This document shows positions 278 through 33,210 of a DNA stretch of 33,210 nt, piece by piece; position 1 is the first letter of the stretch; every line of letters starts with the position of its first letter. The notes below the pieces were generated by a model that ran no database searches, had not been told where the DNA came from, and worked only from the letters and a program-made list of their open reading frames with translations. Source of the DNA: an uncultured Gammaproteobacteria bacterium (GTDB lineage Bacteria > Patescibacteriota > Patescibacteriia > CAYHRN01); the NCBI GenBank assembly GCA_964359155.1, contig CAYHRN010000002.1, positions 1 through 33,210 on the forward strand, read 5' to 3'. The position numbers and the translations under genes were made by a program.

Positions 278-859
278 GTGGAGACAAAAGAAGTGCTGCG
301 CCTTGTAAAGCTCTTCTTCGTGAAGGAAAACTGGGGCAACGGAAATCGCTATGTTGTCAACGACACGCTGGCGCTGAAGTTCAGTGGCGACCAAGAAGCG
401 GCACGCTTTCTCGTGAAGGTAATCCGCTTCTGGTGCGACAAGCAAACGATCTTCTGTTTTGATTACAGAACAAAGCAGGAAAATGGAAAGTCGGTCCTTC
501 TGCTGGAGAATGAGTGGACTTTTTCTCTCTGCTCCAATGGGGAGATGGGAACTTCCTGCTGGCGGACAAGCAGAATCCTTGACAAAATCTTCGAGGACGG
601 CAAGAAGTTCGTGGCGCTGCCCTTTGTTGGGTACTCGTCTACGCTCCGATTCAACCTCCTGAAGGACTTCGCGAAGAACGGACGCGACAGCGTCCTGCGT
701 CTGATAAAAAAGGAGGCGCGGAAACGGGAGGTTGCAGACAGGAAGGCTGAAAGGAAGATTGCGATCCAGGAGGCCACAGGGCAATATTGCGAGGCTGCGC
801 GTGCTTTGCGAAAGTGCGGCGTAAACCCGGCCCGCATCAAAGTCTCGGATTCCCAGTAG
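278..859 (+). CDS. hypothetical protein, orphan, GC3-rich (about 193 aa from GTG 278; ORF track calls TTG 227)
   Basis: Most coherent frame in 227-859. GTG at 278 lies 5 nt after GGGGAGGA. Codons are mostly G/C-ending (CTG, AAG, TTC, GTC), unlike neighbours. Lys/Arg/Glu-rich helical C-terminus; no motif recognised. Confidence 0.55.
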   Translation: METKEVLRLVKLFFVKENWGNGNRYVVNDTLALKFSGDQEAARFLVKVIRFWCDKQTIFCFDYRTKQENGKSVLLLENEWTFSLCSNGEMGTSCWRTSRILDKIFEDGKKFVALPFVGYSSTLRFNLLKDFAKNGRDSVLRLIKKEARKREVADRKAERKIAIQEATGQYCEAARALRKCGVNPARIKVSDSQ

Positions 860-1007: not shown

Positions 1008-1220
1008 CTAACTAGAAAGAAAACTTTTTACATCTTCAGGGGTAATATCGGCGTCTTTGAGTATGCCGTGCAAAAGCCCCTTACCGAAAGTTTTTCCTCC
1101 ATGTACCGGCACCGAGACAATATGCCCATCACGTGCACGCCAGAAAATATGATGGCTTCCTTCAATACGATCAAGCACAAAACCTGCGTGCTGCAGCACG
1201 CGAAATAACTTAACGTGCAT
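1008..1220 (-). CDS. hicA: type II toxin-antitoxin system HicA-family mRNA interferase toxin
   Basis: 70 aa with ..FVLDRIEGSHHIF..VSVPVHGGKTFGKGLLHGILKDA.., the typical HicA/YcfA signature. Start overlaps the hicB stop. Confidence 0.85.
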   Translation of the reverse strand: MHVKLFRVLQHAGFVLDRIEGSHHIFWRARDGHIVSVPVHGGKTFGKGLLHGILKDADITPEDVKSFLSS

Positions 1221-1498
1221 TAAGCACGGGAAGACGCGGCATAAAGCGGCATCATGGAAACCTCTATGGTTTCAATCATTTCAATACTGGTATCATGGGG
1301 AATGGGTTCTTGATGCGCTTGCAGGGTTTTTATATAGCCGTAGATCGCCTCACGAAGATTCTTCTGTGCTTCGGCAATGGTGGTGCCCTGGCTATGGCAC
1401 CCACGCAATGCAGGAACATACCCATGAAATCCTTTGCCATCTTTTTCAATAAGGATGCGGTAGGAGAACATTTGTTCTGAATGTATTTTTTTTGCCAT
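1220..1498 (-). CDS. hicB: HicB-family (UPF0150) antitoxin
   Basis: 92 aa with ..YRILIEKDGKGFHGYVPALRGCHSQGTTIAEAQKNLREAI.., the HicB N-terminal fold signature. Translationally coupled to hicA. Confidence 0.8.
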   Translation of the reverse strand: MAKKIHSEQMFSYRILIEKDGKGFHGYVPALRGCHSQGTTIAEAQKNLREAIYGYIKTLQAHQEPIPHDTSIEMIETIEVSMMPLYAASSRA

Positions 1499-21315: not shown

Positions 21316-21740
21316 CAGCAACTTTGTGGCATGATATGCTGGGTATAGCAATGCTGCTTATACTTGATCAGGTGAGTAAATATATTGTGCCGCAATGGCA
21401 GATGACGTATACCTTGAATCAAGGGAGTGTTGCCGGATTAGGCAGAGAATTAAGCATACCGTGGTGGTGGTGGGCAATCCCGTCACTTATGGTGCTTACC
21501 TTATTGTGGCGCCCAGGGAAGTTTTTTATTCCCACCAAGAGTTTTTATAGTGCGCGCATACTGATCTCCTCCGGCATTGTGGGCAATCTTATTGACCGTT
21601 TCTCCTATGGTGCTGTGCTCGATTTTATTGATATCAGTATAGCGGGTTTTCATTGGCCCGCATTTAACTTTGCTGATATATATTTGGTAATGGGCGTCTT
21701 GTTGGTTCTTGTAACTTTGGTGTCCAGGAAGCATGTATAA
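21306..21740 (+). CDS. lspA: lipoprotein signal peptidase (signal peptidase II)
   Basis: ..GNLIDRFSYGAVLDFID..FNFADIYL.. motifs. ATG 21306 is preferred over track start 21270. Confidence 0.88.
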   Translation: MRLTATLWHDMLGIAMLLILDQVSKYIVPQWQMTYTLNQGSVAGLGRELSIPWWWWAIPSLMVLTLLWRPGKFFIPTKSFYSARILISSGIVGNLIDRFSYGAVLDFIDISIAGFHWPAFNFADIYLVMGVLLVLVTLVSRKHV

Positions 21741-22905
21741 ACGTATGTTTTCTTCTCGAAGGTCAAATGCTCATCGCGTTATTCGTTTTTCTGCACGGAG
21801 CTCGCCAAGGACGCACCGTTCACGGCGGCGTTCTTGGCTTCTGCCGCTGGTGCTTTCGTTGCTCATACTTGTTTCCACCCTCGGCATTGCAGGGCTTGCC
21901 CTTATTGTATGGATTTCGCATGATTTACCCGACCCCAATACTGCCCTTGCTGCCAAGGATTTTGCACAAAGTACGAAAATTTTTGATCGCACCGGTACGG
22001 TTAAATTATATGAACTGTATCAAGAGGAAAAACGCACCATACTCCCCTTTGAGGCAATGCCGTTAGTTGCGCGTCAAGCAACGTTAGCCGCCGAAGATAA
22101 AGATTTTTATTCTCATCGCGGGTTTGACCTTCGGGGTATTGCGCGTGCCTTGTATACCGATATTACGAAGGGCACCCTTGCACAAGGGGGCTCCACGATT
22201 ACCCAGCAGCTTATTAAAAATACTTTGCTCACGCGCGAAAAATCATTCACCCGTAAATTAAAAGAGTTGATTTTGGCGTATCGTATTGAGCAAAAATTTA
22301 CCAAAGATCAAATTTTAAAGCTGTACCTTAACGAAATTCCCTATGGAGCAAATGCCTATGGCATTCAGGCTGCTGCTGAAATTTATTTTGGCATTCCTGC
22401 ACTACAATTGAGCTTGGCCCAAGCAGCACTTTTGGCTAGTTTACCTAAAGCCCCCTCTCGCCTTTCACCCTATGGGGGCAATCTTGAAGAGCTCACCGCA
22501 CGGCAACACTATATACTCGATGTGATGGCGCGGCAGGGGTATATCAATCAAGACAGCGCCGCAAGCGCCAAGGCAGAGAAATTGGTATTTCGTACGCGAC
22601 GCGATGAAGTACAAGCACCCCATTTTGTGGCGTATATAAGGCAACTTCTTTCCCAAACGTATACCGAACAAGAATTACAACAAGGAGGATTTAAGATTAC
22701 TACCACCCTTGATCTCTCGCTGCAAAAATATGCCGAAGAGGCCATTGCTGAATGGGGGCCACGTAATGAAAAAGACTACAAGGCAAGCAATGCCGGGCTT
22801 ATCGCGCTGCATGGTACTACGGGTGAAATTGTAGCTATGGTAGGTTCACGAGATTTTTTTAATGAGAAAAATATATTTTCAATTATAAATTTGATTGGCA
22901 AGTAA
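21733..22905 (+). CDS. class A PBP, N-terminal fragment (TM anchor, GT51 domain, start of transpeptidase domain)
   Basis: GT51 motifs EDKDFYSHRGFD, GGSTITQQLIKN, RKLKELILA. Ends ..FFNEKNIFSIINLIGK* after the frame break. Confidence 0.85.
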   Translation: MYKRMFSSRRSNAHRVIRFSARSSPRTHRSRRRSWLLPLVLSLLILVSTLGIAGLALIVWISHDLPDPNTALAAKDFAQSTKIFDRTGTVKLYELYQEEKRTILPFEAMPLVARQATLAAEDKDFYSHRGFDLRGIARALYTDITKGTLAQGGSTITQQLIKNTLLTREKSFTRKLKELILAYRIEQKFTKDQILKLYLNEIPYGANAYGIQAAAEIYFGIPALQLSLAQAALLASLPKAPSRLSPYGGNLEELTARQHYILDVMARQGYINQDSAASAKAEKLVFRTRRDEVQAPHFVAYIRQLLSQTYTEQELQQGGFKITTTLDLSLQKYAEEAIAEWGPRNEKDYKASNAGLIALHGTTGEIVAMVGSRDFFNEKNIFSIINLIGK

Positions 22906-22949: not shown

Positions 22950-24287
22950 TTGGTATATGCGGCTGCATTTATGAAGGGGTATACGCCCAATACCTTGGTC
23001 TTTGATACTAAAACTATTTTTAAGGCATACCCTGAAGACTATGCGCCCGAAAACTATGATGGTAAAGAGCATGGGCCCCTTCAGCTCAAGAGTGCGCTCG
23101 CAGGATCGCTGAATATTCCTGCCGTGAAACTCCTGTACATTACTGGGGTTGATCGTGTGCTCGACCTTGCCGAAGCGCTCGGCTACACCACCCTGAAAGA
23201 TCGTTCACGATTTGGGTTAAGCTTGGTATTAGGAGGCGCCGAGGTAAAGCTGCTGGAACATGCAGCAGCCTTTCGTTCATTTGCCGAGCATGGTATGTAT
23301 CGTGCGCCCAGTGCTATTGTGCAAATTCAAGATGCAGAAGGTAGTGTGGTGTATGAGCGCCGCAATAATCAGGCGCGTAGTGTGGTTGTCCCCGAGGTAG
23401 CACATACGATCACCAGTATTCTTTCCAATAATGCCCTGCGTACCTTTATTTTTGGCAGTAATAGTTTTCTCCAACTGCCCGATCGCCCTGCGGCCGTGAA
23501 AACCGGTACCACCAATGATTTTCATGATGCCTGGGCTTTGGGTGCAGTGCCCAGCCTCACTGCCGGGGTATGGGTGGGGAACAATGATAATAGCCCTATG
23601 AAAAAAGGGGCGGATGGCAGTAAACTTGCGGCACCTATTTGGCAAAGTTTTATGAAAAAGGCTTTGGCAGGTACACCGGTTCAGGAATTTGTGCCCCCCA
23701 AACCAAGCAGTGCGAATAAACCTATTTTAAAAGGTGAAGGCTTGGGTGAAGTGACGGTAATTCTCGATAAGGCATCGGGTAAACGTGCGACCAGCCTTAC
23801 GCCAGATTCGTTTAAAATAGAAAAGAAATTCAGAGTGCTGCACGATATTTTGTATTTTGTAAACAAAGACGACCCCACGGGCCCTGCACCTTTGCACCCC
23901 GAAACTGATCCGCAATACGCAGGGTTTGAGGCGGGTGTTGCCGCATGGGCACAGAAGCAAGGCTTACAAAATGAAGAGCCCCCCATAGGTGAAGATGATG
24001 TGCATGTACTAGACAATATTCCTCGCGTAACTATCGTAGCTCCTGTTACGGGGAGTCGCATTACAACATCTACTCCTTTGCAGACACAGGCAAGTGCCCC
24101 CCGGGGTGTTGCGCGCATGGAAGTGGCATTGAACGATATCGTTGTTGCACGCACACAAGGCTCTTCGCTTATTGCAACTCTTGATGTAAGCTCAGTCCCT
24201 CCTGGGTTTCACACCCTTACTGCCTATGCGTATGATGATATTGACAATAAAGGCACTGCGTCGGTGACCATCAATGTGACGCGATGA
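22950..24287 (+). CDS. class A PBP, C-terminal fragment (transpeptidase SxN and KTGT motifs plus Ig-like C-terminal domain)
   Basis: ..GSLNIPAV.. and ..VKTGTTND.. motifs. The frame stays open upstream to 22866 and there encodes RQPGSSFKP. Confidence 0.85.
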   Translation: MVYAAAFMKGYTPNTLVFDTKTIFKAYPEDYAPENYDGKEHGPLQLKSALAGSLNIPAVKLLYITGVDRVLDLAEALGYTTLKDRSRFGLSLVLGGAEVKLLEHAAAFRSFAEHGMYRAPSAIVQIQDAEGSVVYERRNNQARSVVVPEVAHTITSILSNNALRTFIFGSNSFLQLPDRPAAVKTGTTNDFHDAWALGAVPSLTAGVWVGNNDNSPMKKGADGSKLAAPIWQSFMKKALAGTPVQEFVPPKPSSANKPILKGEGLGEVTVILDKASGKRATSLTPDSFKIEKKFRVLHDILYFVNKDDPTGPAPLHPETDPQYAGFEAGVAAWAQKQGLQNEEPPIGEDDVHVLDNIPRVTIVAPVTGSRITTSTPLQTQASAPRGVARMEVALNDIVVARTQGSSLIATLDVSSVPPGFHTLTAYAYDDIDNKGTASVTINVTR

Positions 24288-25501: not shown

Positions 25502-27352
25502 TTATTTTTTTGATTCAATCTCTTTCAGGATTCGTTCGGTAAATTGTTTGCGGGTCATGGGTATAGTTGTTTCTTTACCACGCAACCGCACCGCAAGGCG
25601 CGTGCTTTTTGCTTCTTTGTCGCCCATAACCAGCATGTAGGGAATTTTTTGCTGTACAGCTTTACGGATTTTGTAGCCCACGGTTTCATTACTCAAGTCT
25701 GCATGCACTCTAATCCCCTGCTCTTTTAGTTCTTCCGCCAGTTTTTTAACTACCTTTTCATGTTTTTCCCCTACCGGAATAATACCTACTTGCACGGGCG
25801 CAAGCCATGTGGGAAAGGCGCCCGCGTAGTGTTCGATGAGAAAGCCAATAAGGCGTTCGTGGGTAGAAAGTGGTGCGCGGTGAATACACAAAGGAGTTTT
25901 CTCTGTGCCGTCTTTGTCTTTGTAGGTGAGATTAAACCGCGCAGGCACGGCAAAGTCTACTTGGTTCGTGGCAAGGGCAAACTCGCGCCCTATCGTGCTC
26001 CAAATCAGTACGTCAATCTTGGGGCCATAAAAGGCTGCTTCATTGGGCACTTCCACAAATGGCACTTTGGTTTTTATCAAAATAGTACGCACCATAGCTT
26101 CTGTTTTCTCCCATAGCGGCTTATTGTCGATGTATTTTTTACCCAGTCCTTCGGCACTATGCGTGCTAAGGCGGATGACATATTTTTTAATGCCAAAAAT
26201 TTTAAAGTATGCATGGTACAATTTAATCACGGCTAAAAATTCTTTTTCAAACTGTTCTTCGGTGCAATAAATATGCGCATCATTCATTTGCAAGCTGCGC
26301 ACGCGCATCAGGCCAAATAATTCCCCGCTTTTTTCGTAACGGTAGCAGGTGCCGTATTCTGCTAGGCGTAGTGGTAAGTCGCGGTAACTTCTGGGTTCTG
26401 CCGCATAAATTTGATGATGATGTGGGCAGTTCATGGCCTTCAGGTAATACGTAACTTTTTGCCCATTGTCTTCGTTCATCACCATGGGAGGGAACATGCT
26501 TTCGGCATAATAGGGCAAGTGGCCCGAAGTTTTATACATGTCTTCTTTTGCCACATGCGGGGTGCGTACGCGCACATACCCTGTGGCCGCTTCCATGTCT
26601 TTCCCAAGTTTTTCAATTTCTTCAATTAGTATTGCGCCATTGGGGAGCCAAAGGGGCAACCCAGGTCCCACCAAGTCGGAAAACGCAAACAGTTTCAGTT
26701 CTTTGCCAAGCTTGCGGTGGTCGCGGCGCTCAGCTTCTTTTAACAGTTCCAAGTGCGCATCCAGTTCTTCTTGGGTATGAAATGCAAGACCGTAAATGCG
26801 AGTGAGCATTTTGTTTTTCTCGCTCCCCCGCCAGTAGGCGCCCGCAAGGTGGGTAAGTTTAAATGCACCTAATTCGTTGGTGTTTTTAATATGAGGTCCG
26901 CGGCAGAGGTCTATAAATTTGCCGGTTTCATAGATGGAAGCCATGCCATTGCTCACTGAATCTTCGGAGGGTAAATCCCCCTTTTCTTCCCCCTTTGTAA
27001 AAGGGGGAACGAGGGGGATTTGTGTGGTTCCTCGCTCCTTCAGGTCGTTGAGGAGTTCAACTTTAAATTGTTGCCCGCGAGATTGAAAAAATGCAATTGC
27101 CTCATCGAGCGGCATTTCTTTGCGCACATAGGGAGTAGTACGTTTTGCCAAGTTGCGCATTTTTTGTTCAATCCGCACTAAATCTTGTGGCGTAATAGGT
27201 TGAGTAAACTGAAAGTCATAAAAAAATCCATGTTCAATCACGGGGCCAATGCCCAGCTTTACGCCGGGGTACAGCTCTTCCACGGCAGCGGCCATAAGGT
27301 GAGCAGTGGAATGGCGAAGGGTTTCGAGGTCGGGGTTTTGGTTGTTGCTCAT
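25502..27352 (-). CDS. thrS: threonine--tRNA ligase (no N-terminal TGS domain; carries an in-frame palindromic-element insert)
   Basis: HSTAHLMAAAV editing-domain motif, ..DLCRGPH.., class II motifs ..RVRSLQMNDAHIY.. and ..FYGPKID.., and an anticodon-binding domain. ATG 27352 (MSNNQNPDLETLRHSTAH..) is preferred over track start 27433. Confidence 0.95.
   Translation of the reverse strand: MSNNQNPDLETLRHSTAHLMAAAVEELYPGVKLGIGPVIEHGFFYDFQFTQPITPQDLVRIEQKMRNLAKRTTPYVRKEMPLDEAIAFFQSRGQQFKVELLNDLKERGTTQIPLVPPFTKGEEKGDLPSEDSVSNGMASIYETGKFIDLCRGPHIKNTNELGAFKLTHLAGAYWRGSEKNKMLTRIYGLAFHTQEELDAHLELLKEAERRDHRKLGKELKLFAFSDLVGPGLPLWLPNGAILIEEIEKLGKDMEAATGYVRVRTPHVAKEDMYKTSGHLPYYAESMFPPMVMNEDNGQKVTYYLKAMNCPHHHQIYAAEPRSYRDLPLRLAEYGTCYRYEKSGELFGLMRVRSLQMNDAHIYCTEEQFEKEFLAVIKLYHAYFKIFGIKKYVIRLSTHSAEGLGKKYIDNKPLWEKTEAMVRTILIKTKVPFVEVPNEAAFYGPKIDVLIWSTIGREFALATNQVDFAVPARFNLTYKDKDGTEKTPLCIHRAPLSTHERLIGFLIEHYAGAFPTWLAPVQVGIIPVGEKHEKVVKKLAEELKEQGIRVHADLSNETVGYKIRKAVQQKIPYMLVMGDKEAKSTRLAVRLRGKETTIPMTRKQFTERILKEIESKK
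26973..27021. repeat. nested-hairpin palindromic element inside the thrS coding sequence
   Basis: AAATCCCCC-ttttc-TTCCCCCTTT-gta-AAAGGGGGAA-cga-GGGGGATTT. Shares CCCTTTGTAAAAGGG and GGGATTTGTG with the copy at 29445-29493. Confidence 0.7.
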
Positions 27353-27447
27353 AAGGATTACAGTATTTAAAAAATGTAGCCGCAAGCTTGAGCTTGCGAT
27401 CAATGTGGATTTTAGTATATCACGCCGCACCATGAAACGTACAATGG

Positions 27448-27476
27448 TTGACCTTTCAAGTAAAGTTTGCTATTAT
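27448..27476 (+). promoter_or_regulatory. sigma70-type promoter with extended -10 for small ORF 27522-27665
   Basis: TTGACC (27448-27453), 17 nt spacer, TGC-TATTAT (27471-27476). Confidence 0.55.
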
Positions 27477-27521
27477 ATATTTGCCTAAAACCCCATGGAA
27501 AAATACAGAAAGGAGGCTTCC

Positions 27522-27665
27522 ATGGACAGTTTTTGGAACCGCCACCCGCGCCTCACGTGGGTTCTGCTGGTAGGTGAGGCTCTCGCGTTCGCGAGTATCC
27601 TCGCCTACGTGGGGTGGTTGGGCGTTCAACCACCGCCCCCTCCGCCACCCGCTCCCCCCACCTGA
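27522..27665 (+). CDS. small single-pass membrane peptide with polyproline C-terminus (47 aa; 56 aa if ATG 27495 is used)
   Basis: Hand-translated: MDSFWNRHPRLTWVLLVGEALAFASILAYVGWLGVQPPPPPPPAPPT*. AAAGGAGG lies 5 nt upstream. Has its own promoter and terminator, and G/C-ending codons. Confidence 0.5.
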   Translation: MDSFWNRHPRLTWVLLVGEALAFASILAYVGWLGVQPPPPPPPAPPT

Positions 27666-27702
27666 GTGGTGGTCGAGGAAGGTCCGGAGTATCCGGACCA
27701 GA

Positions 27703-27738
27703 AAGGCTCGTGCCACTAATGCCGGGCCTTCTTTTTTT
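27703..27738 (+). terminator. intrinsic terminator of the small-ORF cassette (abuts the stop of the convergent 353-aa protein gene)
   Basis: AAGGCTCG / CGGGCCTT 8-bp stem (one G-U) with a 12-nt loop, then C plus T7 (27732-27738). Preceded by a second hairpin GGTCCGGA-gta-TCCGGACC (27681-27699). Confidence 0.7.
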
Positions 27739-27746
27739 ATTTTGCA

Positions 27747-28808
27747 TTAACATCCACCACAGTTTCCTTTGCCTAAGGCAACTTCTTGTGAAGCACAGGA
27801 AGAAGAAAAGGAAATAAAATACTTCCATTGGCCAGGCGCAATATTGACTGATCGCAAGGCAATGGGCTTGAAGTTCTTACACTGTATCCATGAGGGGGCT
27901 TTATTGGGTTCAGGACGAATTTTATTTTTAAGGCTTTGTCCTTGGTCTGAGTAGGGAGCGCAATAGTTCTGTTGATTAGTGCAGCTTATTTTGGGTGTGC
28001 AAGCTTGGTAGAGTTTAGATGCTATGTCAGGCCATACTTTGTCGGCAAAGCATCGTTCGCATGCACGTGCTGCTACCTCAGGAGGCAGAATAACTATGGC
28101 AGTTTCGTTTTTCATGCCACCACCCTGAGCAAGGGTGCGGTAGGGTACCGTGACACTCACTCCTTCTTTTATTGGTGTGTTGCTTTGAATAGTCTTTCGG
28201 TCTGATAATTTATTATCTTCCATGATGCTTCTCAGTTTTTGAGGGATGCTGGTGAGCGGAAGCTCGAGCTCTGCGTCTATTTGATTTGATGTGGGGGGAA
28301 GTGCACCAAGATCCCAGGTACTTTTTTGGCATATGCTTTGCGTGGCATCATGAGGCGCGGAAGTTGTTTCTCCTGGCCAACGCAGTGGTGTGCCTGGTGC
28401 GAGGGATTCAAGAGGATCGCCAAATCCCCACATAGACCCTCTGCGTGCCTCTCTTGGATCAAAAAGTCCATTGTCTTGGAAAAAGAGGAGTGGTTTATCG
28501 GCAGCACTTTTGGTGTTCACGGTACCTTTAATGGTATTGCCACGTACTGGCGCTGGTATATTTTTAACTTTAAAGCCTTCCAGTGCTTGAAAGTAGGTGA
28601 GGCCATTGTGTTTTTTAAACGAAAGTCCTCGCGAAGAAAAGGTAGTCCCCTCACGGATCTTGTCAGCATTTTGCAACGTAAACGTAAAAGGTACTCCACA
28701 TGGTGGTTTTTGATCGAGCCAGTAGTCGGTAATAGCCTGGGCATGGAGGGGTGTTGTGGGCAGTATCAGGGCCATAATGGTAAGAGCAAAAAAGAAGTTG
28801 CGCATCAT
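27747..28808 (-). CDS. secreted hypothetical protein, Cys-rich C-terminal region
   Basis: Signal peptide MMRNFFFALTIMALILPTTPLHAQA. 11 Cys, 9 of them in the last about 105 residues. Ends GKGNCGGC. No motif recognised. Confidence 0.75.
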   Translation of the reverse strand: MMRNFFFALTIMALILPTTPLHAQAITDYWLDQKPPCGVPFTFTLQNADKIREGTTFSSRGLSFKKHNGLTYFQALEGFKVKNIPAPVRGNTIKGTVNTKSAADKPLLFFQDNGLFDPREARRGSMWGFGDPLESLAPGTPLRWPGETTSAPHDATQSICQKSTWDLGALPPTSNQIDAELELPLTSIPQKLRSIMEDNKLSDRKTIQSNTPIKEGVSVTVPYRTLAQGGGMKNETAIVILPPEVAARACERCFADKVWPDIASKLYQACTPKISCTNQQNYCAPYSDQGQSLKNKIRPEPNKAPSWIQCKNFKPIALRSVNIAPGQWKYFISFSSSCASQEVALGKGNCGGC

Positions 28809-28829
28809 ATGTAGTATTTTTCTTTTATA

Positions 28830-29429
28830 CTACTCTTTTTGAATGTGCACGTCTATGGTGAAGCTCAGAGCGGGGTTCGCGCCCAGCCAGGTATATTTGT
28901 TATTCACTTGGTATATAGGGCGAAAGGCAAGGGTATAGGTGCCAGGGATGCTGGGAGCAACCACGGAAAATGTAAATGTGCCGTGCGCAGTGGGCTCTAC
29001 GCTTTCTTCTTTAAGTGCGGCCACGCGTTTTTTGCCTGGCCAACTTTTGTGATACCAGGGGCTAGAATCTGCTTCGTCGGGCGCAAGAATTTGTAAAAAT
29101 GTAGTGGTGTTTGTCCATGTGGCAGTGCCGGTATTTTGAAATGTAGCAGAAAGGGTAAGAGTTTTTCCTGGGGCAGCAGAGATAAGTTTGTGGCTTTGGG
29201 AAATAAGTTTTTGAGACCAGGTAAAGGGTTCACCCTCACCCCCGCCTACGGCGGGGCCTCTCCCCTCAAGGGAGAGGCGGGTTTTTTCAGAGGGTAAGGG
29301 AGAGGGGTATGATTCAATTTCAAAATCATTCGCATGATTTCCTTGATATATCCTGAATAACCAAATCCCCTGCCCCACCAGGGCAAGGGTCAATACGCCA
29401 ATAACTATGGAGATGTATTCTTTTTTCAT
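28830..29429 (-). CDS. N-terminally membrane-anchored protein with beta-rich (Ig-like, possibly NBR1-type) ectodomain
   Basis: TM helix ISIVIGVLTLALVGQGIWLF, then a repeat-encoded linker. The beta-strand-like segment ..GKTLTLSATFQNTGTATW..GTFTFSVVAPSIPGTYTLAFRP.. is present. The domain call is tentative. Confidence 0.7.
   Translation of the reverse strand: MKKEYISIVIGVLTLALVGQGIWLFRIYQGNHANDFEIESYPSPLPSEKTRLSLEGRGPAVGGGEGEPFTWSQKLISQSHKLISAAPGKTLTLSATFQNTGTATWTNTTTFLQILAPDEADSSPWYHKSWPGKKRVAALKEESVEPTAHGTFTFSVVAPSIPGTYTLAFRPIYQVNNKYTWLGANPALSFTIDVHIQKE
29240..29287. repeat. tandem GC-rich hairpins embedded in frame in the anchored-protein gene
   Basis: CCCCGCC-tac-GGCGGGG (29240-29256) and GCCTCTCCC-ctcaa-GGGAGAGGC (29256-29278), followed by GGG plus T6 on the plus (antisense) strand. 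Translated on the minus strand as ..KTRLSLEGRGPAVGGGEGE.. Confidence 0.65.
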
Positions 29430-29444
29430 AGGCCGCGAATAGTA

Positions 29445-29493
29445 TACCTCTCATTCTCCCTTTGTAAAAGGGAGAAAAGAAGAGGGATTTGTG
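29445..29493. repeat. intergenic copy of the nested-hairpin palindromic element (5' leader region of the anchored-protein gene)
   Basis: TCTCCCTTT-gta-AAAGGGAGA (29455-29475) and GAGGGATTTGTG (29482-29493). Strings of 15 nt and 10 nt are identical to the thrS copy. Confidence 0.65.
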
Positions 29494-29500
29494 GCGTGCC

Positions 29501-29529
29501 TTGCTTTAATAATAAATTTATGCTATTAT
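29501..29529 (+). promoter_or_regulatory. sigma70-type promoter with extended -10 for ORF 29589-29966
   Basis: TTGCTT (29501-29506), 17 nt spacer, TGC-TATTAT (29524-29529). The string TGCTATTATgTATTTG nearly matches the promoter at 27468-27483. Confidence 0.5.
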
Positions 29530-29588
29530 GTATTTGGACCAAGATCGCGGATCTTGGCTTTGTTGGGCCTTTTCCCAGGGAGGGAGCC

Positions 29589-29966
29589 ATGTCGAACCAG
29601 CAGGCTGTCAGGCAGTTAACGATCAACTGCCTGATCATGCTCGTTTTTTTGGCCATGCTGGGGGTCGGGTGGCTTCACTACCGAGCAGCGGAGCTCGGTG
29701 TGCCGCTCATCCCCCGCCGACCCGTCGACCAGGTTGAGCTCGGTAGTGGGGCGCCCAGGCCCGAGGCGCCGCCCGAGAAAATCCTGGATTTCTCGGATAT
29801 CGGTCTGGCCGAGGCGGTCGCTAAGGGAGGCGCCGAGGGTGCTCGCGCGGCGGCCGAAGCCGTCACCAAGGCCGCGGAAGTGGTCGGCGACGTGGCAGCT
29901 GAGGGGGTCGGCAAGATCCCCGAAGCCATGGAGGAGGCGGAAAAAAAGAAAAAGCCGCCCAAGTAG
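29589..29966 (+). CDS. GC-rich small membrane protein: one TM helix, Pro-rich linker, Ala/Glu/Gly-rich tail (125 aa)
   Basis: ATG 29589 follows AGGGAGGGA by 3 nt. Sequence MSNQQAVRQLTINCLIMLVFLAMLGVGWLHY..PRRPVDQ..APRPEAPPE..AEAVAKGGAEGARAAAEAVTKAAEVV..EKKKKPPK. Strongly G/C-ending codons. The track start GTG 29496 would run through the promoter. Confidence 0.6.
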   Translation: MSNQQAVRQLTINCLIMLVFLAMLGVGWLHYRAAELGVPLIPRRPVDQVELGSGAPRPEAPPEKILDFSDIGLAEAVAKGGAEGARAAAEAVTKAAEVVGDVAAEGVGKIPEAMEEAEKKKKPPK

Positions 29967-29999
29967 GGTGGCAATTCAGGGCCTGGAGGGGGCCCGCAG

Positions 30000-30036
30000 G
30001 GAGGGGTAGACTACCAGTGCGTCGCCCCTCCTTTTT
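30000..30036 (+). terminator. intrinsic terminator of ORF 29589-29966, overlapping the stop of the convergent 711-aa protein gene
   Basis: GGAGGGG (30000-30006) pairs with CCCCTCC (30025-30031), followed by T5 (30032-30036). Confidence 0.55.
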
Positions 30037-32171
30037 CATTTCTTTGCCACACCTTTGAGTACTTTTTCTTGTTGTTCTTTAAGACGTTTCAATATTTCTA
30101 TGAAAAATTCTTTCAGGGGGTCAATAGTACCCATTTCTTTAATATAGTTTTTCTTTAAACCTATAAGACGCTCTTCTTCTTGCCGCATAAAGCGCTGCAT
30201 ACGCACGCCCAGGCGTTTGACCATGCGGATTTCTTTAATCTTAAGAAGAGTCTCTACTAACGCATCTAGTGCACGCGGTATTTGATATTTTAATGCCGTG
30301 GGGACGACTGAATCCAGTATCCCTGCAACTACCATGCGTATGTCATTTTCTGTGTCTTGAAGGGTGTCTTTGATAAATTTCGGCAATTTAATGGTACAGT
30401 CTTTTAAATACATGGCTTTCATATTTGCCAAAAGGCGGGTAAAGGCAAGTACAATCATCTCATTTTTAATACCAATGAATGGGGGTCCCCCAAGCACTTT
30501 TGCTATTTCTGGTATTTCTGGTGGCATAGGAGGAAGTCCGCCATTACCATCGGGGTCATTTTTGTGATCATCAAGCCAGCTCCTCGCAGCATAAGGGTCT
30601 TTAGCGCGCTTACGCAGTTCTCTAAAAGCTTCAGAGCCAATGAATGGCATGCCTACTACCACACCGCCTTTTCGATATTTTGTGGAGTAATCGCTGGCAG
30701 CTTCTAATAGTTGTTCAAGATCACCATTGTCTTTAAAATAAAGCTTTTTAAGTAATGAGGCAAGGCCTTTTTTGACGCGCGCATAGATTTCGTGTTTCAT
30801 GCGCAACTTCAGATGATCTTTTGCTTGCTCGCTACACTGCAAGTATTGTAATGCATCTTGTTCAAGGCTGCCTTTCTTGGGGTCAAACATGTCTTGAGGT
30901 TTTTTGGGTGCAAACGGGTTGATAAAGAGCGGTGGGGTTTTGGGAGGTGGTTGTGGCGCGGTGGTGTCTTTCGAATCTTCTTCCTCGGGGAACGAGGGAT
31001 CATTCTTTAATATACGATCAATATCTTCTTGAAGAGAGTCAAGATCTTTTTGAAAATCTGCCTTGGTGCTATGCAGCAGAGCATGCAAGTCTTTCAGGGC
31101 ATCAAGGAGGCCTTGCTTATTATCATTTTTTGCGGCAGCCAAAAGAGTGTCGAGTAATGCAAAGAGTTGGGTAATGCCACGATCGGCAAGTGCTGCTTTT
31201 AGAATACCTTCATGAATATCAATCTGGGGTGCGTTGCGGTCGTACTTTTTAGGATTATAAGAAATAGCATGTTCTAAAAGCCATGAAGCAGGCAAAGAAC
31301 AATTGGCAGGCCACACAGAAATAGCGCTCGCCAGGCCTTGCAAGATACGCAAGGTTTGTATGGGAACGGCAATACCACGTGCATATCCTCGGCCGTCGTC
31401 TTGCTTTTTTAATTCCTTTACCGCTTCAGCCAAGGTGGGGCGTGGCGTAGGTACGGTAAGGCCTTGTGCTGCGTACGCTTTTTCAATTGTTTCATCCCAG
31501 AGCGGCCAGATGGCGTCCAAGAATTTACGGCCGATCAATGCCTTTATGTCTTGATAGCTTGCTTTGGGATTAAAACTACAATCGGCAATTTCTTGCACGA
31601 GCGTGTCTTGAAACTGTTTGAGCATCTGCGTTTCGTCCAAATTAGCATCAATGGCAGGTGGCGCACCAGTACCTGGTAAATCTGGTTTTAATAGTACCCC
31701 TGGTGCCGGGGCTATGCCTGGAGTGTGTACAAACGCAAAGAGTGGGGTAAGTGCGGTATTGGCAACAAATTGCTCTTTACTCACCGTGCTGGTGCCTTGC
31801 AACAAGGCCTGCACGATTGCATCAAAACGTAAGCGCGCAACAAGCGTGGCAAGGTTATTGGCCACGCCTTGTGCCATGGTAATATCTTCTTTGCTTGAGG
31901 GTTGTACCCGCAGTAATGTTTGTCCCAGTATTTGGTTCTTACGGGTGGCACTTAGGCGATACAAGGTGGGAGTAGTTACCACAGGAGTATTAAAATATTT
32001 TTCCCAGGTATTGTCGAGGGGCCTTGCCTTACAGCCCACGACACCACTTGGTACTTCTTGCCCGCCTAAATTTTGTGCAGGAAAACTTGGGCGGGCTTGT
32101 AGGGCGGCCATTGCAGGCGTAAGTGGGCCAAGCAGCAGGCTTAAGATAATAAAAGGAGTGAGAAGTTGCAT
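30036..32171 (-). CDS. secreted hypothetical protein, 711 aa, mostly helical with a central Pro-rich linker
   Basis: Signal peptide MQLLTPFIILSLLLGPLTPAMAA. Linker ..TTAPQPPPKTPPLFINPFAPKKP... No motif recognised. Starts 7 nt after the upstream gene's stop. Confidence 0.8.
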   Translation of the reverse strand: MQLLTPFIILSLLLGPLTPAMAALQARPSFPAQNLGGQEVPSGVVGCKARPLDNTWEKYFNTPVVTTPTLYRLSATRKNQILGQTLLRVQPSSKEDITMAQGVANNLATLVARLRFDAIVQALLQGTSTVSKEQFVANTALTPLFAFVHTPGIAPAPGVLLKPDLPGTGAPPAIDANLDETQMLKQFQDTLVQEIADCSFNPKASYQDIKALIGRKFLDAIWPLWDETIEKAYAAQGLTVPTPRPTLAEAVKELKKQDDGRGYARGIAVPIQTLRILQGLASAISVWPANCSLPASWLLEHAISYNPKKYDRNAPQIDIHEGILKAALADRGITQLFALLDTLLAAAKNDNKQGLLDALKDLHALLHSTKADFQKDLDSLQEDIDRILKNDPSFPEEEDSKDTTAPQPPPKTPPLFINPFAPKKPQDMFDPKKGSLEQDALQYLQCSEQAKDHLKLRMKHEIYARVKKGLASLLKKLYFKDNGDLEQLLEAASDYSTKYRKGGVVVGMPFIGSEAFRELRKRAKDPYAARSWLDDHKNDPDGNGGLPPMPPEIPEIAKVLGGPPFIGIKNEMIVLAFTRLLANMKAMYLKDCTIKLPKFIKDTLQDTENDIRMVVAGILDSVVPTALKYQIPRALDALVETLLKIKEIRMVKRLGVRMQRFMRQEEERLIGLKKNYIKEMGTIDPLKEFFIEILKRLKEQQEKVLKGVAKK

Positions 32172-32178
32172 GCAAGGA

Positions 32179-33210
32179 TTATAATCCTAGAGCCGAGGGT
32201 ACGGCAAAGAATTTACCCCAGGAAAGATAGTACAACATGAGTTTGAGTTTACCTGTGAAGCCGGCGTAGTACGAGGCAATGGCCTCTGGGGACACGGTGA
32301 GTAACTGCTCTTGGCTAAGAAGTTCCAGTAAGAGTTCGTAGGAAACGCTTTGTTGGCTAAGAGGCTTATCAGTAGTGAGAACTAAAGGTTGGGCTTTCGA
32401 CACTGTCGATGGTTGTGCGGTAAGGGTCGCGGCAACGGATTCACCTGTGGGGGATGTGATGGTAGGCGTTGTTTGCGCAAGTTCTTGCTGCGACATACCT
32501 GCAAAGTTAAGGGTTACGGTTCTCGCAGTGCTTACGGTGCCTGAAGCACCCCCTACGGTAACCACAGATCCTGGGGGAGCATTAGGTACCGTGAATGATA
32601 CGGAAGAGCCACCGCTTGAGGTGCCGCCAGAAGGCGTGGTGGCGGGCAAGGGAAGGCTGGAGGTGATTTCTGGCAGATCATTCAAACGCTCAGTATCAGT
32701 AGCTTTCGTTGCTTGTTGTGGATTTGTGGCAACCGCAATACTGTCTTGTAGTTCTGCTTGTGTAAGGGTGCGCGTGTGTGGCCCGTCTGCTGTGTCAGCA
32801 GTAAAAGTAACTGATATAATGTCGTTGAGCTCTTTAAATATTTCATCCCATGAGGTGAAGGTAAAGCGTGTGCCGTCTTTTTTTATGCCCGTGCCCGTCA
32901 ATGATGCAGTGCTTACCGCAACCCCATTGAAGAGTAATTCAGGCATACATGCTCTTGTTTGCGTGCCTTCACTGCTAGTTCCCGTACCCCCAGGGCTCGA
33001 GAATGTGTACATGCCATTTTGCCCAGGTCCGGCGTAGGAGAAGAGTGCTCCACCGGATAACGCTCCACCAGTATCTTGTGCTGATACATTTGGTACTGGG
33101 GTCAGCTCCAAAGTAATTTCTGATCTGGTAAAACTGTTAAATTGAGCCGCTACGGGGGTTAATGGTAAAAGTATAAAGCTTGCAATGGCACTAAATATGA
33201 AAAAACGCAT
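32179..33210 (-). CDS. secreted hypothetical protein, Thr/Ser/Gly-rich, hydrophobic C-terminus (start codon at the window edge)
   Basis: Signal peptide MRFFIFSAIASFILLPLTPVAAQ. Low-complexity T/S/G tracts. C-terminal ..KLKLMLYYLSWGKFFAVPSALGL. Its upstream region lies outside the window. Confidence 0.7.
   Translation of the reverse strand: MRFFIFSAIASFILLPLTPVAAQFNSFTRSEITLELTPVPNVSAQDTGGALSGGALFSYAGPGQNGMYTFSSPGGTGTSSEGTQTRACMPELLFNGVAVSTASLTGTGIKKDGTRFTFTSWDEIFKELNDIISVTFTADTADGPHTRTLTQAELQDSIAVATNPQQATKATDTERLNDLPEITSSLPLPATTPSGGTSSGGSSVSFTVPNAPPGSVVTVGGASGTVSTARTVTLNFAGMSQQELAQTTPTITSPTGESVAATLTAQPSTVSKAQPLVLTTDKPLSQQSVSYELLLELLSQEQLLTVSPEAIASYYAGFTGKLKLMLYYLSWGKFFAVPSALGL

What the first reader, a model, noticed from the sequence alone, without database searches (positions are those of the whole stretch)
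29501..30036. Second GC-rich antisense cassette encoding a 125-aa TM plus Pro-rich plus Ala/Glu-rich protein, built like the first
Promoter: TTGCTT-17 nt-TATTAT with the same TGCTATTATrTATTTG string as the cassette at 27448. A 5'-proximal hairpin CCAAGATC-gcg-GATCTTGG sits at 29539-29557. SD AGGGAGGGA precedes ATG 29589. The ORF runs to 29966 and a terminator overlaps the stop of the convergent 711-aa protein gene. The protein has one TM helix (..LIMLVFLAMLGVGWL..; compare ..ILAYVGWLGV.. in the 47-aa peptide). A Pro-rich segment follows (VPLIPRRPVDQ..APRPEAPPE), then an amphipathic Ala/Glu/Gly/Val tail ending EKKKKPPK. Codons are overwhelmingly G/C-ending (GTC, GCC, CTC, GGC, GAG), in sharp contrast to the flanking genes. 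As with the first cassette, it lies antisense in the spacer between two co-directional minus-strand transcription units. The shared layout suggests a paralogous family of small accessory membrane proteins.
Basis: partly seen in the sequence, partly recalled or inferred. Interest (0 to 1): 0.65.

Follow-up and report, generated by a model that had tools for sequence, protein, structure and literature searches.

The report
Orphan GC-rich small membrane protein gene
This is a real, self-contained gene for a 125-residue single-pass membrane protein in an uncultured groundwater Patescibacteria (CPR) bacterium; it has one known relative, and its one unusual trait is GC-rich codon usage that both copies have kept.

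Summary
The ORF's GC3 is 0.78, against 0.446 +/- 0.031 for 32 window genes.

The region is not a chimera. Contigs from eight groundwater runs cross both junctions at the depth of the flanks. It is protein-coding. An exhaustive HMMER search of 1.84 billion representatives found one homolog, 132 aa and 41-46% identical. That homolog has the same layout and lies convergent to a homolog of the 711-aa neighbour. Between the two copies dN/dS is about 0.2 and dS is saturated. The homolog's GC3 is 0.75 and its neighbour's is 0.45, so the GC excess is maintained rather than left over from a recent transfer.

The predicted protein has a TM helix, a disordered Pro-rich linker and a conserved amphipathic acidic helix. 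It matches no Pfam, NCBIfam, PHROG, PADLOC or PDB family.

The mRNAs fold unusually stably, but no specific base pairs are conserved and Rfam gives no hit. The proposed paralogy with the 47-aa peptide has no sequence support (E = 0.32). Function and expression are untested.

Verdict: an ordinary kind of gene, a lineage-restricted small membrane protein, with an unexplained, conserved compositional anomaly.

The parts
29501..29529 (+). Promoter of the small gene: -35 TTGCTT (29501-06), 17-nt spacer, TG (29521-22), -10 TATTAT (29524-29)
   Evidence: Read from the sequence. Not listed by the scan because the -35 matches only 3 of 6 positions. The ortholog has TTGACA-18-TATTGT with TG at the equivalent place.
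29521..29536 (+). 16-mer TGCTATTATGTATTTG, shared with 27468-27483 (extended -10 plus the start region)
   Evidence: two exact matches, 0.08 expected by chance. A strain variant in run X8 reads TGCTATTGTCTTTTTG.
29539..29557 (+). 5'-proximal 8-bp hairpin CCAAGATC-gcg-GATCTTGG at the predicted 5' end of the mRNA
   Evidence: It is kept in the centroid fold. A role as a 5' stabiliser is inferred.
29577..29585 (+). Shine-Dalgarno AGGGAGGGA, with GGAGG 5 nt before the ATG
   Evidence: Sequence. The ortholog has GGAGG 8 nt before its ATG.
29589..29966 (+). ORF for a 125-aa protein: TM helix about residues 10-31, Pro-rich disordered linker 37-70, conserved amphipathic acidic helix 71-120, basic tail KKKKPPK
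29998..30036 (+). Intrinsic terminator of the small gene (GC-rich hairpin plus U5); it abuts the stop codon of the convergent 711-aa gene
29941..29972 (-). Putative terminator of the convergent 711-aa gene: hairpin GCCACCC-uacuu-GGGCGGC followed by U5CU7. On the plus strand this is the Lys-codon run and stop codon of the small ORF. The two transcripts would overlap by about 95 nt at their 3' ends.
   Evidence: Sequence and fold. Inferred; the stem has one mismatch and the scan did not list it.
30036..32171 (-). Convergent neighbour: a 711-aa secreted, largely helical protein with no known family. Its C-terminus is homologous to the convergent neighbour of the ortholog.
29441..29468 (-). Divergent promoter-like site TTTACA-16-TATACT for the 199-aa gene (28830-29429), back to back with the small gene's promoter
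   Evidence: The ortholog locus has the same back-to-back arrangement.
27448..27745 (+). First cassette, for comparison: promoter TTGACC-17-TATTAT, SD AGGAGG, 47-aa ORF 27522-27665 (TM plus poly-Pro), two terminal hairpins and a T-run
   Evidence: GC3 is 0.71.

Best explanation
The region is a genuine, independently transcribed gene of a groundwater Patescibacteria (CPR) bacterium, encoding a 125-aa bitopic membrane protein.

Shown:
- The promoter, SD, ORF and terminator anatomy.
- Correct assembly.
- Protein-level purifying selection, strongest on the C-terminal helix.
- Conserved synteny with a large secreted helical protein.
- GC-rich codon usage kept in both known copies.

Inferred:
- An extended -10 promoter starts the mRNA about 2 nt before a 5' hairpin. 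A strong SD drives translation from ATG 29589. The 148-aa start of the database annotation lies inside the -10 region and is probably wrong.
- The N-terminal 20-residue hydrophobic helix anchors the protein in the membrane.
- A flexible Pro-rich spacer holds out a conserved, net-acidic amphipathic alpha-helix (PPEKIxxF...SDxGLxEAVAKxGAEGARxAAEAV...IPxAxEEAE) with 3.67-residue periodicity. This helix would act as a binding or membrane-surface element.
- The likely partners are the surface and secreted proteins encoded around it.
- The K/R count favours an N-out/C-in topology, but only weakly.

The high GC3 is a maintained property. The most likely causes are selection for a very stable mRNA or a locus-specific GC-biased process. 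It is not a relic of recent transfer.
For: - Anatomy.
- Coding periodicity: GC1/2/3 = 0.71/0.44/0.78.
- Homology: phmmer against 1.84 billion representatives found one homolog, P0005 (132 aa, E = 6.7e-14). BLASTP gives 41% identity over 121 residues.
- Ortholog locus L083: TTGACA-18-TATTGT promoter with TG, GGAGG, a GC-rich ORF and a terminator hairpin with a U-run. It also has a convergent neighbour homologous to the C-terminus of the 711-aa protein (33% identity, E = 6e-15).
- Selection: dN/dS is 0.20-0.24 with dS above 2. For the C-terminal part dN is 0.25 with dS beyond saturation.
- Ortholog composition: GC3 0.75 against 0.45 for its neighbour.
- Start site: the two N-termini align at the ATG.
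- Structure: AF2 predicts helix 3-36 (pLDDT about 80-93), a disordered stretch 37-70 and helix 71-120.
- Amphipathicity: the hydrophobic moment peaks at 98 degrees in both proteins. K/R flanking the TM number 1 (N side) against 3 (C side), and 2 against 4 in the ortholog.
- Assembly: junction-spanning contigs at single-copy depth in runs X1-X8.
- Taxon: ThrRS is 64-65% identical to those of Patescibacteria MAGs. The window also carries dnaA, dnaN, rnpA and yidC.
Against: - Only two family members exist, so conservation rests on a single pairwise comparison.
- There is no expression evidence; no RNA run holds the sequence.
- The AF2 model is low-confidence outside the TM helix (mean pLDDT 61.5).
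- Topology and binding partner are inferences.
- The cause of the high GC3 is not established.
- Long ORFs are easy to obtain in 65-70% GC sequence. Three other frames here are open for 58-103 codons, so ORF length alone proves nothing.
Confidence: 0.78

Rival explanations
1. A recently acquired foreign gene. On this reading it is a small islet from a GC-rich donor (a host bacterium, phage or plasmid), and the GC3 excess is unameliorated donor composition.
For: - GC3 of 0.78 is more than 10 SD above the window's genes.
- Two other plus-strand ORFs are also GC3-rich (47 aa at 0.71, 193 aa at 0.69), and one of them sits beside a HicAB module.
- Ala/Pro/Gly-rich TM proteins are common in high-GC bacteria (general knowledge).
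Against: - A syntenic ortholog at 41-46% identity with saturated dS has the same GC3 excess (0.75 against 0.45). Amelioration should have erased a donor signal over that distance.
- There is no homolog in any other organism among 1.84 billion representatives or 5.8 billion clusters.
- There is none in viral contigs, phage records or JGI metagenomes either.
- No flanking repeats, integrase or tRNA are present.
- The promoter and SD are of the native AT-rich type.
Confidence: 0.1
2. The functional product is a structured non-coding or dual-function RNA, and the ORF is incidental to GC-rich sequence.
For: - Fold z-scores are -4.6 (window transcript), -5.5 (ortholog transcript) and -5.6 (first cassette). 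Twenty-one control genes give a mean of -0.6 with SD 1.5.
- The ORFs still score -3.6 and -4.6 against codon-order permutations.
Against: - MFE pairs of one ortholog are kept in the other no more often than in shifted controls: 47% against 34-46%, and 55% against 40-53%.
- The two-sequence consensus fold has a folding term of only -63 kcal/mol, against -254 and -222 for the individual folds.
- Rfam gives no hit at gathering thresholds and only chance-level hits at E up to 5.
- Substitutions follow a protein pattern, with dN/dS about 0.2.
- One ordinary control gene also reaches z = -4.2 in the codon-permutation test.
Confidence: 0.06
3. The 125-aa protein and the 47-aa peptide are paralogs: a family of small accessory membrane proteins spread by duplication of a promoter-ORF-terminator module.
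For: - Both have the same layout and orientation.
- They share a 16-nt promoter string.
- Both are GC3-rich.
- Both have a TM helix ending in VGWL, followed by prolines.
- There is a marginal match of the peptide to the ortholog's N-terminus (E = 0.046).
Against: - BLASTP of the 47-aa peptide against the 125-aa protein gives E = 0.32 and matches only prolines.
- No DNA similarity exists beyond the 16-mer.
- The part of the 16-mer downstream of the -10 is not kept in a strain variant or in the ortholog.
- TM segments resemble one another by composition alone.
Confidence: 0.12
4. An assembly or binning artefact: a GC-rich fragment from another organism spliced into a CPR contig.
For: - This is a metagenome-assembled contig with sharp compositional borders.
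- The two ENA contigs that carry it are low-coverage, carry about 270 deletions relative to the window, and continue into 55-65% GC sequence beyond the window end.
Against: - Error-free contigs from separate runs cross the left border: X3 29238-29632, X5 29296-29786, X2 29431-29816, X6 29448-29750 and X7 29463-29793.
- Others cross the right border: X3 29781-30051, X4 29828-30061 and X8 29923-30113.
- Depth over these contigs equals that of the flanks.
- The ortholog contig shows the same borders.
Confidence: 0.02

Closest known systems
YtxH-like and DUF948-like general stress proteins (N-terminal TM helix followed by Ala/Glu/Lys-rich amphipathic helices)
   Same: Small size, an N-terminal membrane anchor, and a long Ala/Glu-rich amphipathic helix predicted to lie on or near the membrane.
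   Different: No sequence match to any Pfam model, even at E up to 10. This protein has a 30-residue Pro-rich disordered spacer between the anchor and the helix, and the helix is net acidic and Gly-rich. The resemblance is recalled from general knowledge and concerns architecture only.
TonB/TolA-type anchored spacers (TM helix plus Pro-rich or Ala/Lys/Glu-rich rod plus C-terminal domain)
   Same: An N-terminal single TM helix followed by a Pro-rich segment that could span an envelope layer.
   Different: No TonB_C or TolA domain is present. At 125 aa it is far too short. No ExbBD or TolQR genes are nearby.
11-residue amphipathic repeat proteins (LEA group 3, apolipoprotein, alpha-synuclein type)
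   Same: The helix has 11/3 periodicity: the hydrophobic moment peaks at 98 degrees. It has an Ala/Gly/Val face and Glu and Lys/Arg stripes.
   Different: No detectable repeat homology (Pfam and PDB searches negative). It has about 4 turns of repeat rather than many copies, and it is membrane-anchored.
Compositionally atypical genes from horizontal transfer (genomic islets)
   Same: A sharp GC and GC3 deviation confined to one transcription unit.
   Different: The deviation is shared by a syntenic ortholog after saturating synonymous divergence. No donor lineage is detectable.
Type I toxin-like small hydrophobic peptides with highly structured mRNAs (relevant mainly to the 47-aa neighbour cassette)
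   Same: A short single-TM ORF, its own strong promoter, a stable structured mRNA, and a start codon sequestered in a stem in the first cassette.
   Different: The 125-aa protein is too long and has a conserved soluble domain. No antisense RNA promoter was identified, and no match to a known toxin family was found.

Membership tests
YtxH-like (Pfam PF12732) and other curated small-membrane-protein families | Significant match to the family HMM | tested here: not met
   Pfam: 0 families for P0001 at E up to 10; P0005 gives only SIT at E = 0.24. NCBIfam: nothing for P0001 at E up to 1; only a HypB match at E = 0.04 for P0005.
YtxH-like | N-terminal TM helix directly followed by an amphipathic Ala/Glu/Lys helix | tested here: inconclusive
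   A TM helix and an amphipathic helix are both present, but a roughly 35-residue disordered Pro-rich linker separates them.
TonB family | C-terminal TonB_C domain and an ExbB/ExbD partnership | tested here: not met
   No TonB_C match. No ExbBD or TolQR genes among the window's annotated ORFs.
Horizontally acquired islet | Atypical composition | tested here: met
   GC3 is 0.78 against 0.446 +/- 0.031.
Horizontally acquired islet | Patchy distribution with homologs in a plausible donor, or mobility genes or repeats at the borders | tested here: not met
   Only one homolog exists, it is syntenic, and it lies in an AT-richer context. There are no tRNAs and no significant border repeats. None of the window ORFs scanned against Pfam matched an integrase or transposase family.
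Structured non-coding RNA (any Rfam family) | Match to a covariance model | tested here: not met
   No hit at gathering thresholds. The best hits at E up to 5 score 14-18 bits against gathering cut-offs of 37-77.
Structured non-coding RNA (novel) | Base pairs conserved or covarying between relatives | tested here: not met
   Projected MFE pairs are kept no more often than in shifted controls. Only two sequences are available, so power is limited.
   E = 0.32 against the 125-aa protein and E = 0.046 against the ortholog, each in a single pairwise comparison.
Protein-coding gene under selection | dN/dS well below 1 between relatives, with the frame and start conserved | tested here: met
   dN/dS is 0.20-0.24. 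The aligned N-termini, the SD and the stop are all kept.
Protein-coding gene under selection | Transcript and protein detected | not testable with these tools
   No RNA run holds the sequence, and no proteomics data are available.

The most novel reading that the evidence does not exclude
The three GC3-rich plus-strand genes of this window (193 aa, 47 aa, 125 aa) and the ortholog may represent a class of promoter-to-terminator small-gene modules in CPR bacteria. In this reading their codons are held GC-rich by selection at the RNA level, giving exceptionally stable, long-lived mRNAs in very slow-growing cells. Alternatively, a locus-specific GC-biased conversion or exchange process could do it. 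Either way, synonymous composition would be a functional, heritable trait of particular genes rather than of the genome.
Probability: 0.15. Interest if true: 0.6.

Novelty: new member of a known kind. Interest (0 to 1): 0.35.

Why it matters
By itself this adds one more lineage-restricted small membrane protein to the large uncharacterised proteome of CPR bacteria. It sits in a cluster of secreted and surface proteins of the sort thought to mediate their episymbiotic lifestyle.

The part worth remembering is the composition. Here GC3 is 0.3 above the genomic level, confined to single small transcription units, and retained in a syntenic ortholog after synonymous sites have saturated. The usual explanation, recent transfer awaiting amelioration, does not account for that. 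If the pattern holds across more genomes, it would be a clean natural case for studying gene-specific selection, or biased conversion, on synonymous sites and mRNA stability in bacteria with minimal genomes.

There is also a practical point. The database annotation appears to start the gene 23 codons too early, inside its own promoter.

Tried and rejected
Homology searches
- The word-indexed search with the protein and with the two-sequence profile returned only the query protein and P0005.
- The same search with the 711-aa neighbour returned only the neighbour itself.
- JGI metagenome scans with peptide patterns, and with a degenerate DNA pattern for GAEGARxAAEAV, returned nothing or four chance hits in unrelated GC-rich contigs.
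- Viral contigs, phage records and plasmid records gave no match.
- Pfam, NCBIfam, PHROGs, PADLOC and PDB sequence searches gave nothing credible.
- Eighty ThrRS loci from related Patescibacteria genomes hold no relative of either small protein and no copy of the promoter 16-mer.

RNA hypotheses
- Rfam at gathering and at permissive thresholds gave nothing.
- A consensus fold of the two orthologs and a projection of base pairs gave no conserved structure.

Multicopy or mobile element
- The error-free patches of the ENA contigs coincide with both cassettes, which at first suggested a multicopy or expressed element. This was rejected. Logan depth over the cassettes equals that of the flanks, and the same kind of clean patch occurs inside ordinary genes.
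- The repeat search found no flanking repeats.

Not possible with these tools
- Expression: no RNA run could be listed.
- A fold search of the AF2 model was not run, because the model is a TM helix plus one low-confidence helix and any matches would be meaningless.

Full report
What is there

The window is a 33-kb piece of an uncultured Patescibacteria (CPR) chromosome from groundwater. It carries dnaA, dnaN, rnpA, yidC, infB, ruvC and pentose-phosphate genes. Its ThrRS is at most 64-65% identical to those of Microgenomates, Staskawiczbacteria and other Patescibacteria MAGs. The runs and contigs that hold the sequence are groundwater metagenomes, including Hainich wells.

From 24.3 kb to the end of the window every large gene lies on the minus strand. 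Two short plus-strand units interrupt that block, at 27448-27745 and at 29501-30036. The second is the finding.

Checking the observation

- The -35 TTGCTT is at 29501-06. After 17 nt comes the -10 TATTAT at 29524-29, immediately preceded by TGC, which makes an extended -10.
- The -35 is weak (3 of 6 positions), which is why the consensus scan did not list this promoter. It did list the first cassette's TTGACC-17-TATTAT.
- The 16-mer TGCTATTATRTATTTG occurs exactly twice, once at each cassette, against 0.08 matches expected.
- An 8-bp hairpin at 29539-57 sits at the predicted 5' end of the RNA.
- GGAGG lies 5 nt before the ATG at 29589, and the ORF ends at 29966.
- A GC-rich hairpin at 29998-30033 with a U-run ends on the first base of the stop codon of the convergent 711-aa gene.

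Composition is the strongest part of the observation.
- The ORF has GC1/2/3 of 0.71/0.44/0.78.
- Thirty-two other genes of the window have GC3 of 0.446 +/- 0.031, with a maximum of 0.50.
- None of 615 in-frame 126-codon windows of those genes exceeds 0.571.
- Both G- and C-ending codons are enriched.
- Only three stretches of the window reach 62% GC over 150 bp: the two cassettes and the end of a third plus-strand ORF at 278-859.

Is it an artefact?

No. Error-free contigs assembled independently from eight groundwater runs cross the left border (for example X3 29238-29632, X5 29296-29786, X7 29463-29793). Others cross the right border (X3 29781-30051, X4 29828-30061, X8 29923-30113). One X3 contig covers the whole first cassette (27162-28039). 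Depth over these contigs equals that of the flanking genes, at 2-5x. The unit is therefore neither chimeric nor multicopy.

Two ENA contigs that carry the gene (L001, L002) are noisy, with about 270 deletions relative to the window. Their error-free patches happen to include both cassettes. That pattern also occurs within ordinary genes, so I do not read anything into it.

Is it a gene for a protein?

ORF length alone means little in 65-70% GC sequence. Three other frames here are open for 58-103 codons. The evidence comes from comparison.

The word-indexed search of 5.8 billion clusters found only the protein itself. An exhaustive phmmer scan of 1.84 billion representatives found exactly one relative, P0005 (132 aa, E = 6.7e-14). 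BLASTP gives 41% identity over 121 residues, and the two-sequence MAFFT alignment gives 44%.

P0005 lies on a 1.3-kb Hainich contig (L083) with the same anatomy:
- TTGACA-18-TATTGT preceded by TGC;
- GGAGG, then an ATG aligned with ours;
- a GC-rich ORF;
- a terminator hairpin whose U-run abuts the stop codon of a convergent gene.

That convergent gene is homologous to the C-terminus of our 711-aa protein (33% identity, E = 6e-15). It is therefore a syntenic ortholog in a distantly related organism.

Between the two, dN/dS is 0.20-0.24 with dS above 2. In the C-terminal half dN is 0.25 while dS is beyond saturation. This is the signature of a translated, constrained protein.

The aligned N-termini and the SD favour the 125-aa start. 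The 148-aa database version begins inside the -10 hexamer.

What the protein looks like

AlphaFold with the two-sequence alignment gives three elements:
- a confident helix at 3-36, whose hydrophobic core at about residues 10-31 is the membrane anchor;
- a disordered Pro-rich stretch at 37-70;
- a long helix at 71-120, at low confidence.

Conservation is concentrated in PxRPVxQ and, above all, in APPEKIxxF..SDxGLxEAVAKxGAEGARxAAEAV..A.E..GD.A.E....IP.A.EEAE. The hydrophobic moment of this helix peaks at 98 degrees in both proteins, a periodicity of 3.67 residues. It has an Ala/Val/Gly face and Glu and Lys/Arg stripes. The domain is net acidic and ends in a short basic tail.

K/R residues flanking the TM helix number 1 (N side) against 3 (C side), and 2 against 4 in the ortholog. 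This weakly favours N-out/C-in. A Pro-rich spacer would also suit an outward-facing stalk, so I leave the topology open.

Nothing in Pfam, NCBIfam, PHROGs, PADLOC or PDB sequences matches.

RNA-level alternatives

The transcripts fold far more stably than dinucleotide shuffles. The z-score is -4.6 here, -5.5 for the ortholog and -5.6 for the first cassette. Twenty-one control genes give a mean of -0.6 with SD 1.5. The most negative control is the third GC3-rich ORF, at -3.9.

Part of this effect survives permuting codon order, at -3.6 and -4.6. One ordinary gene reaches -4.2 in the same test.

The pairs of one ortholog's structure are not kept in the other beyond shifted controls. The consensus fold is weak, and Rfam has nothing. 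I conclude that high folding stability is a generic property of these GC3-rich messages, not a specific conserved RNA structure. A non-coding function is unlikely.

The composition puzzle

The ortholog's GC3 is 0.75 while its neighbour's is 0.45. Synonymous sites are saturated between the two copies, so an unameliorated donor signal should be long gone. No donor lineage is detectable in any collection searched. Recent transfer is therefore a poor explanation.

What remains is a maintained, gene-specific bias. The candidates are selection for mRNA stability or another nucleic-acid property, or a local GC-biased conversion process. I cannot distinguish these with one window and two sequences.

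Relation to the first cassette

The layout is the same: strong extended -10 promoter, SD, single-TM ORF followed by prolines, terminator, high GC3, and antisense position between minus-strand genes.

Beyond that, nothing links the two. The proteins are not detectably related (E = 0.32 and 0.046), and the DNA shares only the 16-mer. Of that 16-mer, only TGCTATTRT, the extended -10, is kept in the ortholog and in a strain variant seen in run X8, which reads TGCTATTGTCTTTTTG. Common descent is not excluded, but it is not shown.

Regulatory context (inferred)

The small gene's promoter stands back to back with a minus-strand promoter-like site, TTTACA-16-TATACT at 29468-29441, for the 199-aa gene. 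L083 has the same divergent arrangement.

On the minus strand, the run of Lys codons and the stop codon of the small ORF form a hairpin followed by U5CU7 (29972-29941). This would terminate the 711-aa gene's transcript. If so, the two convergent RNAs would overlap by about 95 nt.

Verdict

The paralog-family and mobile-cassette readings are not supported.

In kind this is ordinary: a lineage-restricted small bitopic membrane protein in a surface-protein neighbourhood of a CPR genome, forming a new two-member family. The unusual and unexplained feature is the conserved GC-rich synonymous composition and the accompanying very stable mRNA. Function and expression remain untested.

Noticed in passing
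window 278-859 (+), beside HicA 1008-1220 (-) and HicB 1220-1498 (-): A third compositionally atypical plus-strand gene. It encodes 193 aa from a GTG start after GGGGAGGA. GC3 is 0.69 and the fold z-score is -3.9. It matches no Pfam, NCBIfam, PHROG or PADLOC family and nothing in phage or plasmid records. The identical protein is called on a Hainich H52 contig (L084) with the same HicAB neighbours.
   Followed up: partly
window 26975-27025 (inside the ThrRS ORF) and 29445-29495 (5' leader of the 199-aa gene); also 29229-29279: A short palindromic repeat, CCCTTTGTAAAAGGG..GA.G.GGATTTGTG, occurs twice. In ThrRS it is in frame (IPLVPPFTKGEEKGDLP) and falls in a variable loop where relatives have an approximately 8-residue gap. 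These spots, and the hairpin at 29256-29278, show 4- to 40-fold excess contig depth. Many unrelated contigs match only there. This suggests a REP- or RPE-like repeat family shared by many groundwater genomes.
   Followed up: partly
L001 9300-15180 and L002 6900-13229 (beyond the window end at 33210): The two ENA contigs continue past the end of the window into 55-65% GC sequence encoding Ser/Thr kinases and FGE-sulfatase domains. This is either a chimeric join or a large GC-rich island next to this locus. The same contigs carry about 270 single-base deletions relative to the window.
   Followed up: partly
window 27468-27501: The -10 of the first cassette's promoter (TATTAT, 27471-76, plus strand) overlaps, base for base, a minus-strand TATAAT (27477-72) with TTTCCA 18 nt upstream. 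That site is positioned to drive ThrRS, whose ATG is at 27433. The two divergent promoters may compete for RNA polymerase.
   Followed up: no
window 29520-29966: The database (NCBI-source) version of the protein is 148 aa, starting at ATG 29520 inside the -10 region. The ENA gene call, the SD position and the ortholog alignment all favour the 125-aa start at 29589.
   Followed up: yes
window 29410-29562, run X8: A co-occurring strain or sister species has 19 substitutions and one insertion across the divergent promoter region. Its -10 is changed to TATTGT, as in the ortholog. It diverges completely after the 5' hairpin, while the ORF-covering contigs from this and the other runs show at most one substitution each (29776 in X6, 29994 in X3). 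The 3' end of the 711-aa gene (30062-30116) also carries a cluster of variants in X1, X6 and X8.
   Followed up: no
window 21733-22905 (+) and 22950-24287 (+): A transglycosylase-domain ORF (390 aa) is followed 45 nt later by a separate transpeptidase plus Big_7 ORF (445 aa, TTG start). This looks like a class A penicillin-binding protein split into two reading frames.
   Followed up: no
window 27747-33210 (-): The four minus-strand genes around the cassettes encode proteins of 353, 199, 711 and 343 aa. All have hydrophobic N-termini that look like signal or anchor sequences. Three have no known family; the 199-aa protein has a sub-threshold Ig-like match. Of the two whose exact sequence is in the collection (711 and 199 aa), each is alone in its cluster; the 353-aa protein's exact sequence is not in the collection and the 343-aa protein was not looked up. 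This appears to be a fast-evolving surface-protein neighbourhood.
   Followed up: partly
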